From: Bacillota bacterium
GTDB taxonomy: Bacteria; Bacillota; Clostridia; Christensenellales; SZUA-584
Assembly: GCA_023390815.1 (NCBI GenBank)
Contig: JAEWCC010000049.1
Location: 85,741-149,740, forward strand
DNA length: 64,000 nt
Direction: 5' to 3'
Below, one piece after another: positions 27,001 through 30,000 of this stretch. The first letter of the stretch is position 1. Each line of letters starts with the position of its first letter. The position numbers are program-made.

Positions 27001-30000
27001 CGAAAATACTTTTCTCATGAACATGCTTGAAACACCTCCATTCGTTTCATAAGAACTATCAGCATTATTGCAAATAATTCTTAATAAAGACATTATACAC
27101 AATATTAAGATAATAAGAATAAGAACGTGTAAACAAACAATGAATCAGGAGTCAATTTTTAATTAAGAAAAGCCGCATCACGTAAAAATGCGGCTGCAGA
27201 GTGTTAAAAAAGCTCTTTTTATGGCCCCCTCTGACGACCACCCCAAAAAGCTGCGCTTCTAGGGGACCCCGGCACGGGCTGTCACCGATAGGTGACTGGG
27301 GGAGAGAAAAAGCCTAAAAGCAGGTCACTCCCTCCGGCACTTCGTGCCACCTCCTACGTACCCGGAGGGTGCTCGTCTGAGGGAGGCATGATAAGTTTAT
27401 CGACAGCCTGAAGCCGCATCACGTAAGGAATGCGGCAGGTATGCCCCGATAACACGGGATCTTTCGCGATTAATTGCTTCAGCCCTTCACTACGCCCAGC
27501 GTGCTCAGTTTTTTGACCGGCGTTACGAGGTCGAGTTCGTTTGCAATGACCTCCTCGATATCCTTGTACGCAAAGCGGCACTCCTCAGGAACGTCGTTCT
27601 TTTTGTGCTTGCCCAGCACCACTCCGGTGGTTTTAAGGTCTACCATCACCTGTTCCACCGAAAAGTTCTCCATTGCTTTGGTCCGGGAATAGCGCCGACC
27701 TGCCCCGTGGGAGCACGAATAAAAGCTTTCCGGGTTACCCTTGCCCTCCACAATGTAGCTGGCGGACCCCATTGCGCCGGGGATAATCCCGATCTCGCCT
27801 TCGCGCGCGCGGATGGCGCCTTTGCGATGCACCCAGACGTCTTTGCCATAGTGGTGCTCGATCGCCGCATAATTATGGTGGCAGTTGATATAACCGGAGA
27901 AGGCGGGCGTTAAGCCGAGGAGCTTCGCGCTCCAGCGCGCGAGGATGCCCTGCACCGTCTGCATCATCCGGTCGCGGTTCTCGTGCGCGAAATCGAGCGC
28001 AAGGTTCATATAACGGATGTAGTTTTGTCCTTCATCCGTATCTACCGGCAGAAACGCCAGCCGGTATTCTTCGGGGACGGAGGAATACCAGCGCTGGTTC
28101 AATTCCTGCGCCGCCTGATCAAAGTGGTTGCAGATCTTGAGCCCGAAATGGCGGCTGCCGCTGTGCAGCATGACGCAGACCATGCCCGCTTCATCCTGCT
28201 GGATCTCGATGAAATGGTTGCCGCCACCAAGCGTGCCAATCTGATAGTATCCGTTCTCGATCTCGGCAACGAGGCTGGGCACGCAAGCATATTGCTCCAC
28301 GTTCGCGATTGCCTCATCGATGACGCGGGAAGGCTGAGGCTTCGGGTGGTGTGCGGAGCCTACCGGAACGTTGCGCAGGATATCGCCCACGAGGCACTGC
28401 AGCAGCGAGCCGGATGGGGTCTGCGCCTCTTTCAGCGCTTCCGCCGGAATATCCGTCTGGACGAATGCCATGCCGCACCCGATGTCCACACCGACCGCGT
28501 TGGGAATGATGACGCCTTCCGTGGCGATCACGCCGCCGATCGGCATGCCCATTCCCTGATGGGTATCCGGCATCAGTGCGACCCACTGGTGGATAAACGG
28601 CAGGCGGGATAAATTGGCGGTCTGTTCCAGACAGCCCGGCTCGATTGCGCCCTCCGGCAGCCAGACTTTGATGGGATGGCGCTGATCTTCAAGATTTCTG
28701 ATTACATACATGGCTTACACCTCGTTTCTGAAGCCAATATACATCTTTTTGAGGAAGATATCGTTAAGAAAAGTGTGCGAATGCGCATTGTGAATGCCAT
28801 GCAAATGATTATATAATATGACAGGGTGAATGTTTTGCCGGGATATTCTGAGCTCATTAAAAACTTCGAAAAGATCAGGGATTTTGTCCGCGATTTTTTC
28901 ATATTCGGGTATCGCAGCCGGGGTGACTACGATGCGGTTTCCGCGCGCAGCTACGACAACGAGCGGCGGCGTATTCAAAGCTACCTCGAGGATTACGTCA
29001 GCGAGCATTGGGACAGCCGCGGCAAGACGATTTCCATCGCGTCGGATACCATCGCCAAATCCGTGAATCCGCTGTTCAAGGTTTGGGAAACCAAATCGTT
29101 TACGCGGAACGATCTGTTTTTGCATTTTGTGATACTGGACATCCTGCAGGACCAATGCCTGTCCGCGCCCGAAATCGCGGAGGTCATCGCGAACGACTAT
29201 CTGTGCAGTCTGAGCGAACCCGTTTTGATCGACGCGATGACGATTCGCAACAAGCTCAGCGAATACACCGCATTGGGCATTCTCTCCGTGCAGAAAACGG
29301 GCAAATCCCTGTGCTACAGCCTTACCGGCTGCGAGCTGCCGCTCGGCAATGCGTTGGTTGACGCACTGCTTTTTTATCAGAACGTTGTGCCCATGGGCTT
29401 TTTGGGTGCCGCCATGGTGAAGGGGCAATTAAGCCCCTTTATGTACCGGCAGATATTTTTTGCGCAGGCGTTGGACGATGATGTGCTGCGCCATATTTTC
29501 GATGCCATGTCGGATCAACGGAGTATCAGCGTCTCACAGGAAAAGTTCGGACGGGACATCGTGACGCGCTCCGCCGTACCGGTTTATGTGCTGTCCAATA
29601 CGCGGACCGGCCGGCGTTATCTGGTGTTTTTCTCCCTGCGGAAGCGCAGGTTCTCCACGATGCGCGTGGACTACATTAAATCGGTCACACCCGGCGAGCC
29701 GGTTGCGGGTTTCGAGGAGATACGCGCGGAATACAAAAGGCTCGCAGAGAATTCCTTCTCCCTCGTGCACCGGCAGGACACCCTTAAGCATGTGCGTATG
29801 GTGCTGCACATCGACGAGCAGCAGGAAAAGTACGTGGTCGAGCGGCTGGTGCGCGAGGGCAAGCATGGCACATTGACGCGAATTGCCGAAAACACGTTTG
29901 AGTATGCCATCGACGTGCCGGACACGATGGAGATGGTGCCATGGCTGCGCACCTTTATCGGCCGTATCGTTTCCATTGAGGGTACGGAAGTCGGTGTGAT

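What the first reader, a model, noticed from the sequence alone, without database searches (positions are those of the whole stretch)
27171..27447. Copy 2 of the structured repeat is bracketed by a duplicated 25-bp hairpin
Left flank 27171-27196 reads agccgcatcacgtaaaaatgcggct. Right flank 27411-27437 reads agccgcatcacgtaaggaatgcggc. They match at 23 of 25 positions and each forms a hairpin. The rtcB terminator hairpin therefore appears on both sides of the element. That is the signature of insertion into, or duplication of, the terminator, like a very long target-site duplication. Copies 1 and 3 lack such flanking duplicates. This points to a recent mobilisation event or to recombination between terminator hairpins.
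Basis: seen in the sequence. Interest (0 to 1): 0.6.

Follow-up and report, generated by a model that had tools for sequence, protein, structure and literature searches.

The report
Mobile repeat that duplicates terminator hairpins
A small non-coding repeat (175-215 bp, three copies in this window) has inserted just after three unrelated genes, each time at the gene's transcription-terminator hairpin and each time leaving a second copy of that roughly 25-bp hairpin, which points to a terminator-targeting mobile element with an unusually long target duplication.

Summary
Two 25-nt hairpins at 27171-27195 and 27412-27436 match at 23 of 25 aligned columns. They are direct repeats, loops included, and they bracket copy 2 of a 215-bp structured repeat that lies just 3' of rtcB on the minus strand.

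The far hairpin carries the T-tract and is the working intrinsic terminator. The near one has no T-tract.

- Copy 1 (19812-19985) sits between two related hairpins, 19 of 23 identical.
- Copy 3 (31204-31413) sits between a decayed hairpin copy and an intact one, 17 of 25 identical.

Related genomes supply empty sites. The Xaa-Pro peptidase gene (copy 1) and the SPFH gene (copy 3) are followed there by one homologous hairpin and no element.

No rtcB empty site with the same hairpin was found. The closest relatives have only 83% identical RtcB and carry unrelated single terminators.

Best reading: a MITE-like, non-autonomous element that integrates at terminator palindromes with a stagger of about 23-26 bp. 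The transposase is unknown. There is no Rfam match, and the element does not fit IS1202-type ends.

This is a moderately interesting new variant of a known kind, resting on three copies in one genome.

The parts
27479..28711 (-). rtcB coding sequence (410 aa). Copy 2 lies in its 3' untranslated region.
   Evidence: Pfam RtcB match with E=3.4e-112. ORF coordinates.
27411..27436 (-). Proximal copy of the duplicated hairpin (RNA sense GCCGCAUUCCUUACGUGAUGCGGCUU). It starts 42 nt after the rtcB stop codon, has no T-tract and abuts the 5' end of the element.
   Evidence: Sequence. Folds at -14.4 kcal/mol. Not listed by the terminator scan. Aligned to the distal copy.
27197..27410 (-). Copy 2 of the structured repeat (about 215 nt). 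Its ends are 5' (T)CAGGCTGTCGATAAA ... TTTTTTAACACTCTG(CA) 3', forming an imperfect terminal inverted repeat.
   Evidence: blastn and alignment of the three copies. Boundaries. nhmmer E=1.6e-73. Fold z-score -5.9.
27164..27195 (-). Distal copy of the duplicated hairpin (27171-27195) plus its T-tract (27164-27170). This is the working intrinsic terminator of the rtcB + element transcript.
   Evidence: Terminator scan: minus strand 27195..27171, AGCCGCATTTTTACGTGATGCGGCT followed by TTTCTTAATT. Folds at -14.1 kcal/mol.
18502..19773 (+). Xaa-Pro (M24) peptidase gene. Copy 1 lies in its 3' region.
   Evidence: Pfam Peptidase_M24 and Creatinase_N. Orthologues are 402-404 aa.
19790..19811 (+). Proximal hairpin of copy 1 (GGCGCTTTCTGAGGAGAGCGTC), without a T-tract.
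   Evidence: Sequence. Folds at -13.8 kcal/mol. 19 of 23 identical to the distal hairpin.
19812..19985 (+). Copy 1 of the structured repeat (174 nt). It lacks the 38-nt hairpin insert found in copies 2 and 3.
19985..20015 (+). Distal hairpin of copy 1 (GGCGCTTCCTTAGGGAGCGCC) plus TTCTGTTTTA. This is an intrinsic terminator.
   Evidence: Terminator scan. Folds at -16.5 kcal/mol. Homologous single hairpins occur in L097 and L100.
31442..32560 (-). SPFH/Band-7 gene. Copy 3 lies in its 3' region.
   Evidence: Pfam Band_7 with E=1.5e-26.
31414..31436 (-). Decayed proximal hairpin copy of copy 3 (RNA sense GACCGGAGAGCCCUGCCCAGCCU). It starts 5 nt after the SPFH stop codon, where relatives have their terminator 6-8 nt after the stop. 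It no longer folds.
   Evidence: Sequence. Folds at only -4.8 kcal/mol, z about 0. 17 of 25 identical to the distal copy, p=6e-5.
31204..31413 (-). Copy 3 of the structured repeat (210 nt).
31177..31201 (-). Distal hairpin of copy 3 (AGGCCGGAGAACTGTTTTCCGGCCT), followed by TTGATTTCTG. This is an intrinsic terminator, orthologous to the single SPFH terminators of relatives.
   Evidence: Terminator scan. Folds at -17.2 kcal/mol. 21 of 25 identical to the L096 hairpin.

Best explanation
The 'structured repeat' is a small non-coding, non-autonomous mobile DNA element of the MITE type: 175-215 bp, with imperfect terminal inverted repeats that start CAGRSTGT.

It integrates at the palindromic stem-loop of an intrinsic terminator lying just downstream of a stop codon. 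Integration cuts the two DNA strands about 23-26 bp apart, on either side of the hairpin. Gap repair therefore duplicates the whole hairpin and leaves hairpin - element - hairpin.

The distal copy keeps the original T-tract and goes on terminating a transcript that is now about 200 nt longer. The proximal copy has lost its T-tract to the element, is no longer needed, and decays.

The pair around copy 2 at rtcB is simply the youngest of three such events in this window.

Shown here: the direct repeats, their position flush with the element ends, the terminator status of the distal copies only, and empty sites with one homologous hairpin for two of the three copies.

Inferred: the staggered-cut mechanism, the recognition of terminators, and the existence of a transposase encoded elsewhere.
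For: 1. The copy 2 flanks are direct repeats, 23 matches in 25 columns, and 0 of 20000 shuffles reach their score. The direct score is 20 and the inverted score is 10. This is the top pair among all neighbouring hairpins in the window.

2. The same arrangement occurs at the other two copies with different hairpin sequences: copy 1 at 19 of 23 identical and copy 3 at 17 of 25 identical, p<=6e-5 end-anchored.

3. In all three copies the distal hairpin is the one called as an intrinsic terminator with a T-tract. The proximal one is not. The fold energies show the proximal copy of copy 3 has decayed.

4. Empty sites for copy 1. L097 has a peptidase 94% identical with the same flanking genes. L100 is 91% identical. 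Each has one AGCGCTTC...GGCGCT hairpin plus T-tract and no element. The two window hairpins are closer to each other (19 of 23) than to either orthologue (at most 17 of 24).

5. Empty sites for copy 3. L004, L005, L095 and L096 each have a stop codon, then 6-8 nt, then one [A/G]GCCGG...CCGGC[C/T] hairpin. The distal window copy is 21 of 25 identical to the L096 hairpin.

6. The element ends are the same in all three copies and abut the repeats.

7. The three host genes are unrelated: an M24 peptidase, RtcB and an SPFH protein.

8. The element is absent from all 80 RtcB loci of other species, apart from one fragment in L005.

9. A wider family with the same five-helix core exists in metagenome contigs.
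Against: - There are only three copies, all in one metagenome-assembled genome and all within 12 kb. No more were found in the rest of the window or in 10 kb beyond each end.
- No autonomous partner or transposase was identified.
- No empty rtcB site carries the same hairpin. The nearest RtcB relatives are at most 83% identical, with unrelated terminators and broken synteny.
- The copy 3 repeat is not significant in an unanchored local test (p=0.135). The repeat boundaries used in the anchored test were chosen after looking at the data.
- For copy 1, direct and inverted similarity cannot be told apart (12 against 11), because the hairpin is nearly a perfect palindrome.
- L005 and L099 have different hairpins after the peptidase gene, so terminator turnover is fast.
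- More distant family members in metagenome contigs do not show clear flanking repeats. Only 2 of 7 reach p of about 0.002, and those two share the same upstream flank.
Confidence: 0.7

Rival explanations
1. The whole unit is a functional RNA module in the 3' UTR, for example a stabiliser, a processing substrate, or an RtcB-related RNA. On this view the two hairpins are kept alike by selection, because together they form a long closing helix or a terminator/anti-terminator switch.
For: - Minimum-energy folds of copies 1 and 2 pair the upstream hairpin with the terminator hairpin in a long closing stem. The z-scores are -5.9 and -6.2.
- All three copies share the orientation of the upstream gene and have no promoter-like site of their own.
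- The core has helices kept through sequence change, such as GUCACC/GGUGAC against GUCGCC/GGCGAC and GGCAC/GUGCC against GGCGC/GCGCC.
- One copy sits next to an RNA ligase gene.
Against: - The loops of the copy 2 hairpins are direct repeats, not complementary. The long helix is therefore a by-product of duplicating a palindrome.
- The upstream hairpin of copy 3 has decayed and no longer folds, so it is not under selection.
- RtcB loci of 80 other species lack the element, and two of the three copies follow unrelated genes.
- Sense and antisense strands fold about equally well across the family: sense is better in 6 of 9 and antisense in 3 of 9. There is no strand-specific RNA signal.
- No Rfam family matches, even at E up to 10.
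Confidence: 0.1
2. The hairpin duplication and the arrival of the element result from replication or repair accidents at palindromes. Candidates are template switching, or illegitimate recombination between terminator hairpins. No dedicated transposition reaction with a fixed stagger is involved.
For: - Palindromes are known hot spots for slippage and template switching (general knowledge).
- No transposase was found.
- The repeat length is not strictly constant (about 23, 25-26 and 24-25 nt).
- The three copies are clustered within 12 kb.
Against: - Three independent events gave the same precise element ends flush with the repeats.
- All three are direct duplications of a whole hairpin of nearly the same length.
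- No hairpin duplication without the element exists elsewhere in the window or at the orthologous loci.
Confidence: 0.13
3. The hairpins belong to the element. They would be part of its ends and travel with it, kept alike by gene conversion between the two arms, rather than coming from the target.
For: - In L005, whose peptidase is 93% identical, the terminator after the peptidase gene is a different hairpin. The copy 1 hairpin pair could therefore have come in with the insert.
- The element as a whole is a long imperfect palindrome.
Against: - The three copies carry three different hairpin sequences (off-diagonal scores 4-10).
- Homologous single hairpins sit at the orthologous positions without the element: in L097 and L100 for copy 1, and in L004, L005, L095 and L096 for copy 3.
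Confidence: 0.04
4. The match is a chance resemblance between two GC-rich terminator-like palindromes.
For: Short GC-rich palindromes do resemble one another. One cross-locus pair reaches a score of 10.
Against: 0 of 20000 and 0 of 50000 shuffles reach the observed scores. The next best neighbouring hairpin pair in 64 kb scores 10 against 21. The same pattern appears at three loci.
Confidence: 0.01

Closest known systems
Prokaryotic MITEs and small interspersed repeats (Correia, RUP, BOX, bcr1, QMITE; reviewed in PMC10969869)
   Same: - Short, non-coding and intergenic.
- Terminal inverted repeats and strongly folding transcripts.
- Flanking direct repeats that fade with age.
- Several copies per genome, present or absent between relatives.
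   Different: - Known bacterial MITEs have short duplications (2-9 bp, often TA) and usually land in AT-rich targets.
- Here the duplication is about 23-26 bp and coincides with a GC-rich terminator stem-loop.
- No parent insertion sequence is known.
- The review does not describe hairpin-length duplications.
IS1202 group of the IS1202 family (bioRxiv 10.1101/2022.12.17.520857)
   Same: - Very long direct target repeats (27-28 bp, range 26-29).
- Found in Firmicutes, including Clostridia.
- It shows that a transposase can make a stagger of this size.
   Different: - IS1202-family ends begin TGT or TAT. This element begins and ends CAG...CTG.
- The IS1202 target repeats listed in that paper's Supplementary Table 1 are AT-rich and non-palindromic, and several lie next to TGTCAA.
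- Here the repeats are 23-26 bp GC-rich palindromes.
Bacterial class C group II introns (own knowledge; see also bioRxiv 10.1101/2021.09.28.462093, listed but not read)
   Same: They insert in the sense orientation right after intrinsic-terminator stem-loops, so they ride in 3' regions without disrupting genes.
   Different: - They are ribozymes of more than 600 nt, usually with a reverse transcriptase, and make no target duplication.
- This element is 175-215 nt, has no Rfam intron match, and is flanked by duplicated hairpins.
CRISPR repeat duplication by Cas1-Cas2, and casposon integration (PMC5137440, listed; mechanism from own knowledge)
   Same: An integrase attacks the two strands on either side of a partly palindromic sequence, so repair duplicates that whole sequence: about 28-37 bp for CRISPR repeats and 14-15 bp for casposons.
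   Different: - No cas1 or casposase gene is seen near the copies.
- The duplicated sequences here differ from locus to locus and are ordinary terminators.
- The inserted DNA is a structured repeat with inverted ends.
Insertion sequences that target palindromic repeats (IS1397/ISKpn1 in REP/BIME loops; IS1111 group in REP or attC) and SPRITE terminator-like repeats (own knowledge; SPRITE is mentioned in PMC10969869)
   Same: Extragenic hairpins are recognised as targets, or terminator-like small repeats sit downstream of genes.
   Different: - Those insertion sequences insert inside the hairpin with duplications of 0-4 bp.
- SPRITE is itself a terminator-like hairpin.
- Here the resident terminator is duplicated whole and the element lies between the copies.

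Membership tests
MITE (non-autonomous DNA transposon) | Small size (under about 600 bp) with no coding capacity | tested here: met
   The copies are 174, 215 and 210 bp. Only short spurious open frames occur, and they are not conserved between copies.
MITE (non-autonomous DNA transposon) | Terminal inverted repeats | tested here: met
   The 5' end is TCAGGCTGTCGATAAACTTATCATGCCTCCCTCAGACGA. The reverse complement of the 3' end is CAGAGTGTTAAAAAAGCTCTTTTTATGGCCCCCTCTGACGA. They are imperfect and pair in the folds.
MITE (non-autonomous DNA transposon) | Direct repeats of target DNA flush with both ends | tested here: met
   All three copies have them: 23 of 25, 19 of 23 and 17 of 25 identical. 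The length of about 23-26 bp is atypical for MITEs.
MITE (non-autonomous DNA transposon) | Presence/absence at orthologous sites (empty sites) | tested here: met
   Empty sites for copy 1 in L097 and L100, and for copy 3 in L004, L005, L095 and L096. This holds between species only. No strain-level polymorphism and no rtcB empty site with the same hairpin were found.
MITE (non-autonomous DNA transposon) | A related autonomous element with the same ends that supplies the transposase | not tested
   Nothing with these ends exists elsewhere in the window or in the 10-kb extensions.
IS1202-group derivative | Ends beginning 5'-TGT or TAT | tested here: not met
   The conserved ends are (T)CAGG... 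and ...CTCTG. A TGT lies 6-7 nt inside each end, but the outer bases are conserved in all copies. Compared.
IS1202-group derivative | Direct repeats of 27-28 bp (26-29), AT-rich and not palindromic | tested here: not met
   The repeats here are about 23-26 bp GC-rich stem-loops, compared with the listed IS1202 repeats.
Group IIC intron | Group II ribozyme domains (for example domain V) and intron size | tested here: not met
   No Rfam match at the gathering threshold in the window, nor at E up to 10 in 27100-27500. The length is 175-215 nt.
Group IIC intron | Insertion just 3' of a terminator stem-loop, in the sense orientation, without target duplication | tested here: not met
   The position and orientation resemble this feature, since all three lie after a hairpin in the gene's sense. 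But the hairpin is duplicated on the far side.
Known structured RNA families (Rfam 15, including Y RNA and other RNAs linked to rtcB/rsr operons, self-cleaving ribozymes, tRNA-like RNAs) | A covariance-model match | tested here: not met
   cmscan of the whole window at the gathering threshold gave 0 matches. The region 27100-27500 at E up to 10 gave 0 matches. ARAGORN found 0 tRNA or tmRNA genes.
Intrinsic (Rho-independent) terminator: distal hairpin 27171-27195 | GC-rich stem-loop followed at once by a T-tract on the transcribed strand | tested here: met
   Terminator scan hit with 9 pairs and the tail TTTCTTAATT. Folds at -14.1 kcal/mol.
Intrinsic (Rho-independent) terminator: proximal hairpin 27412-27436 | GC-rich stem-loop followed at once by a T-tract | tested here: not met
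   The stem-loop folds at -14.4 kcal/mol. It is followed by TTCAGGCTG, the element's end, and the scan does not call it.

The most novel reading that the evidence does not exclude
The element reports an undescribed transposition system that recognises intrinsic-terminator palindromes and cuts the two strands at the two feet of the stem-loop, about 25 bp apart. A two-fold symmetric DDE transposase or a Cas1-like integrase could do this. Every insertion would then rebuild a working terminator behind the element. The element would ride in 3' UTRs of many genes without polar effects, and its age could be read from the decay of the proximal hairpin.
Probability: 0.3. Interest if true: 0.7.

Novelty: new variant of a known kind. 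Interest (0 to 1): 0.5.

Why it matters
If the reading is right, this is a MITE-like element with two unusual linked properties: it targets transcription terminators, and its target duplication equals a whole terminator hairpin.

- **A gentle way for mobile DNA to spread.** The host gene and its termination stay intact.
- **Annotation.** It could explain some tandem or 'double' terminators and long structured 3' UTRs in Clostridia genomes.
- **Dating.** Hairpin decay gives a built-in relative clock for insertions.
- **Enzymology.** It points to an integrase with a stagger of about 25 bp, which would be worth finding.
- **rtcB.** The element next to rtcB is probably not part of an RNA-repair system, and the rtcB link is incidental.

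Tried and rejected
- **Known RNA families.** Rfam on the whole window at the gathering threshold, and on 27100-27500 at E up to 10, gave nothing. ARAGORN found nothing. A Y-RNA-like or RtcB-substrate RNA was rejected, because two copies follow unrelated genes and 80 other RtcB loci lack the element.
- **Public DNA collections.** blastn against plasmids and phages gave no match. Two viral-contig pattern scans gave one unrelated hit and then none.
- **Strain-level empty site.** Exact-protein look-ups for RtcB returned only the same genome with an identical locus. The RtcB homologue search showed nothing between 83% and 100% identity.
- **More copies.** An nhmmer profile of the three copies found none in the window, in the 10-kb extensions of the same scaffold (L103, L105), or in about 100 related loci.
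- **IS1202-derived MITE.** Considered because of that group's 27-28 bp repeats. Rejected on the ends and the target type.
- **Strand-specific RNA structure.** Sense and antisense fold energies show no consistent difference.
- **Flank repeats in distant relatives.** In the metagenome family members the result was inconclusive. The L084/L092 flank type alone is suggestive, and the element boundaries there are unclear.
- **Gene orientation in distant relatives.** Not resolvable from raw open frames in those GC-rich contigs.
- **Other hairpin duplications.** A search of the window for hairpin duplications without an element found none.
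Full report
**What is at the coordinates**

The window reads agccgcatcacgtaaaaatgcggct at 27171-27195 and agccgcatcacgtaaggaatgcggc at 27412-27436. The '23 of 25' count is right once a 1-nt gap is allowed: 23 matches, one mismatch and one gap, all in the loop.

Both sequences fold on the minus strand, at -14.1 and -14.4 kcal/mol. The match is not chance:
- 0 of 20000 shuffles reach the local score of 20.
- 0 of 50000 shuffles reach the end-anchored score.
- Among the 14 pairs of strong hairpins lying 30-1500 nt apart in the 64-kb window, this pair scores 21 and the runner-up scores 10.

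The similarity is direct (20) rather than inverted (10). The asymmetric loops have the same polarity, so the two hairpins share descent. They were not selected to be complementary to each other.

**Context and strand**

rtcB is on the minus strand at 27479-28711 (Pfam E=3.4e-112). Read on that strand the order is as follows:
1. The rtcB stop codon, then 42 nt.
2. The proximal hairpin.
3. A 215-nt repeat element (27197-27410).
4. The distal hairpin, followed by UUUCUUAAUU.

A consensus scan calls only the distal hairpin an intrinsic terminator. The proximal one is followed by the element's end (UUCAGGCUG) and is not called. No promoter-like site precedes the element on that strand. The element is therefore most simply part of the rtcB 3' untranslated region.

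**The other two copies**

blastn and alignment find three copies:

| Copy | Coordinates | Strand | Upstream gene | Distal terminator called |
|---|---|---|---|---|
| 1 | 19812-19985 | + | M24 Xaa-Pro peptidase (18502-19773) | 19985-20005 |
| 2 | 27197-27410 | - | rtcB | 27195-27171 |
| 3 | 31204-31413 | - | SPFH/Band-7 (31442-32560) | 31201-31177 |

Every copy lies between the stop codon of a gene on the same strand and a called intrinsic terminator.

- Copy 1: GGCGCTTTCTGAGGAGAGCGTCT against GGCGCTTCCTTAGGGAGCGCCT, 19 of 23 identical. Both fold, at -13.8 and -16.5 kcal/mol.
- Copy 3: GACCGGAGAGCCCTGCCCAGCCTT against GGCCGGAGAACTGTTTTCCGGCCTT, 17 of 25 identical. Only the distal one still folds, at -17.2 against -4.8 kcal/mol.

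End-anchored shuffle tests give p<2e-5, p<2e-5 and p=6e-5 for copies 1, 2 and 3. An unanchored local test supports copies 1 and 2 (p=8.5e-4 and p<5e-5) but not copy 3 (p=0.135). Copy 3 therefore rests partly on the comparative evidence below.

The three loci carry three different hairpin sequences. Cross-locus scores are 4-10 against 12-20 for same-locus pairs of copies 1 and 2.

The repeats are about 23, 25-26 and 24-25 nt long. They abut the same element ends, 5' (T)CAGG...CTCT(G) 3'.

**Empty sites**

The window's genome also occurs in ENA and Logan assemblies, but with an identical rtcB locus. No RtcB between 83% and 100% identity exists in the protein collection. No strain-level polymorphism could therefore be seen, and related species had to serve.

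*Copy 1.* The peptidase of L097 is 94% identical, in the same gene order (TetR, SCP2, peptidase, the same downstream small gene). It is followed by TAG, 22 nt, AGCGCTTCCGAACAGGAGGCGCT, TTTTTA, and no element. L100 (91%) has ACAGCGCTTCGTAATGGGGCGCTGT followed by TTTTT. These single hairpins are homologous to both window hairpins (15-17 of about 24). The two window hairpins are closer to each other (19 of 23). That is what a duplication in the window's lineage predicts. L005 and L099 have other hairpins there, so terminators turn over quickly.

*Copy 3.* In four relatives the SPFH stop codon is followed 6-8 nt later by one hairpin and no element:
- L096: AGCCGGAAAACTATTTTCCGGCT
- L004: AGCCGGAGTCTAATCTCCGGCT
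- L005: GGCCGGAGGGGTTACACTCTCCGGCC
- L095: GGCCGGGGATCACTCTCCGGCC

The window's distal hairpin is 21 of 25 identical to the L096 hairpin. The decayed proximal copy starts 5 nt after the stop codon, which is the orthologous position.

*Copy 2.* The four nearest RtcB loci (L004, L005, L095, L096; 76-83% identity) each have one terminator and no element. Their hairpins are unrelated to AGCCGCAT...ATGCGGCT and the downstream genes differ. This is consistent with the model but is not a true empty site.

No locus anywhere showed a duplicated hairpin without the element (and the loci above).

**What the element is**

It matches no Rfam family and no tRNA-like gene. Nothing similar occurs in the plasmid or phage collections.

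Its ends form an imperfect inverted repeat of about 40 bp. Its interior is a set of hairpins. The full unit folds far better than shuffles, with z-scores of -5.9 to -6.2.

A pattern scan of metagenome contigs found 11 loci holding a wider family with the same five-helix core:
- P1: CCUCCCUC-AGAC-GAGGGAGG.
- P2: a hairpin of variable sequence.
- P3: GGAGGGAG...CUCCCUC, with a variable tip.
- P4: a variable hairpin, for example GUCACC/GGUGAC against GUCGCC/GGCGAC.
- P5: the complement of P1.

Blocks that were not part of the search pattern are conserved (UUUYCYCUCCCYCAGUC, GACAGC, UCGUCWGAGGGRG). The family is therefore real.

Folding is about as good on the antisense strand as on the sense strand, with the sense strand better in 6 of 9 members. 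The structure is thus that of a DNA palindrome as much as of an RNA. I found no strand-specific RNA signal.

A profile of the three copies finds no further copy in the window, in 10 kb beyond each end of the same scaffold, or in about 100 related loci. The one exception is a 5' fragment in L005 beside the WYL gene.

**Most likely mechanism**

The anatomy is that of a non-autonomous transposon. It is small and non-coding, with inverted ends, target-derived direct repeats flush with those ends, presence or absence between relatives, and unrelated host genes.

The unusual parts are the target and the length of the duplication. The duplication is about 23-26 bp and coincides with a whole terminator stem-loop, plus one T of its tail.

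I infer that the integrating enzyme attacks the two strands on either side of the palindrome. A two-fold symmetric transpososome on a two-fold symmetric target would do this naturally. Repair then copies the hairpin.

The distal copy keeps the T-tract and the terminator function. The proximal copy loses its T-tract to the element and is free to decay.

The three loci form a decay series, consistent with three insertions of different age:
- Copy 2: 23 of 25 identical, both hairpins fold.
- Copy 1: 19 of 23 identical, both fold.
- Copy 3: 17 of 25 identical, the proximal copy is unfoldable.

The repeats, the terminator calls and the empty sites are shown. The staggered cut, terminator recognition and the enzyme are inferred.

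**Rivals**

- *A functional RNA whose two hairpins are kept alike by selection.* The long closing helix in the folds supports it. The direct polarity of the loops, the decay at copy 3 and the absence of the element from other RtcB loci argue against it.
- *Repair or template-switch accidents at palindromes.* This cannot be excluded, but it does not explain three events with identical element ends.
- *Hairpins travelling with the element.* The empty sites contradict this.
- *Chance.* The shuffle tests exclude it.

**Comparison with known systems**

- *Bacterial MITEs.* Those in the review I read (PMC10969869) have short duplications. No hairpin-length duplication is described there.
- *The IS1202 group.* It makes 27-28 bp repeats and occurs in Clostridia. 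Its ends start TGT or TAT, and its listed target repeats are AT-rich and non-palindromic. Membership therefore fails on two tested features, although it shows that such a stagger is enzymatically possible.
- *Class C group II introns.* They share the terminator-proximal, sense-oriented position (own knowledge). They are large ribozymes that make no duplication.
- *CRISPR repeat duplication and casposon integration.* They share the logic of duplicating a palindromic target (own knowledge; PMC5137440 was listed). No Cas1-like gene was seen here.

**Verdict**

The statement that the other copies lack duplicates is wrong.

The rtcB association is probably incidental.

Main limits:
- Three copies in one metagenome-assembled genome.
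- No transposase identified.
- No same-hairpin empty site for rtcB.
- No structure-aware search of whole collections.

Noticed in passing
window 27479-32560; L004, L005, L095, L096: The gene order SPFH, then two WYL-domain genes on the opposite strand, then rtcB is conserved in the window and in four related genomes. These RtcB loci therefore carry WYL-domain regulators rather than an RtcR-type one.
   Followed up: partly
L097 20820-21100 (syntenic with window 27019-27200): L097 is the closest relative by the peptidase gene. Its homology with the window stops about 16 nt before the copy 2 terminator T-tract. What follows is only an internal RtcB-like fragment (residues 202-238, 45% identity). 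The rtcB 3' half and its terminator appear to have been deleted in that lineage.
   Followed up: partly
L005 7593-7650; L085 1376-1436; L086 788-848; L094 3468-3527: 'Half elements' carry only P1, P2 and the 5' arm of P3 of the repeat family. The L005 one sits beside the WYL gene end, near where the window has copy 3. The L094 one is followed by a terminator.
   Followed up: partly
L005 18340-18400 and 7450-7500: A different small repeat (GGAGGCTCYGCCTCCA ... AAGGGAT.ATCCCTT) lies next to the terminators of both the peptidase gene and the SPFH gene in L005. Terminator-proximal small repeats seem common in this clade.
   Followed up: no
L091 602-830; L084 and L092 upstream flanks: There are arrays of short GC-rich hairpins separated by ATATCAC or ATATCGC. 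They occur inside the tip of helix P3 of one family member and in the flanks of others.
   Followed up: no
window 27412-27436 versus 19985-20005: The loop of the copy 2 proximal hairpin (TTCCTTACG) resembles the copy 1 distal hairpin (CTTCCTTAGG). Their cross-locus score is 10, against 4-6 for the other cross pairs. This may be chance or exchange between copies.
   Followed up: no
window 7938-8803: Tandem direct repeats with periods of 102 and 105 nt, at 71-92% identity. They were not examined further.
   Followed up: no
L096 4406-14241: Two large serine recombinase genes and phage-like genes begin 165 nt after the rtcB stop codon. The rtcB 3' flank is thus an integration or synteny break point in relatives.
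   Followed up: no
window 22887-26545: A cluster of a MoxR-like AAA ATPase, a DUF2201 VWA-like/metallopeptidase gene and a transglutaminase-like gene lies between copies 1 and 2. It is also present in L005, L097, L099 and L100.
   Followed up: no
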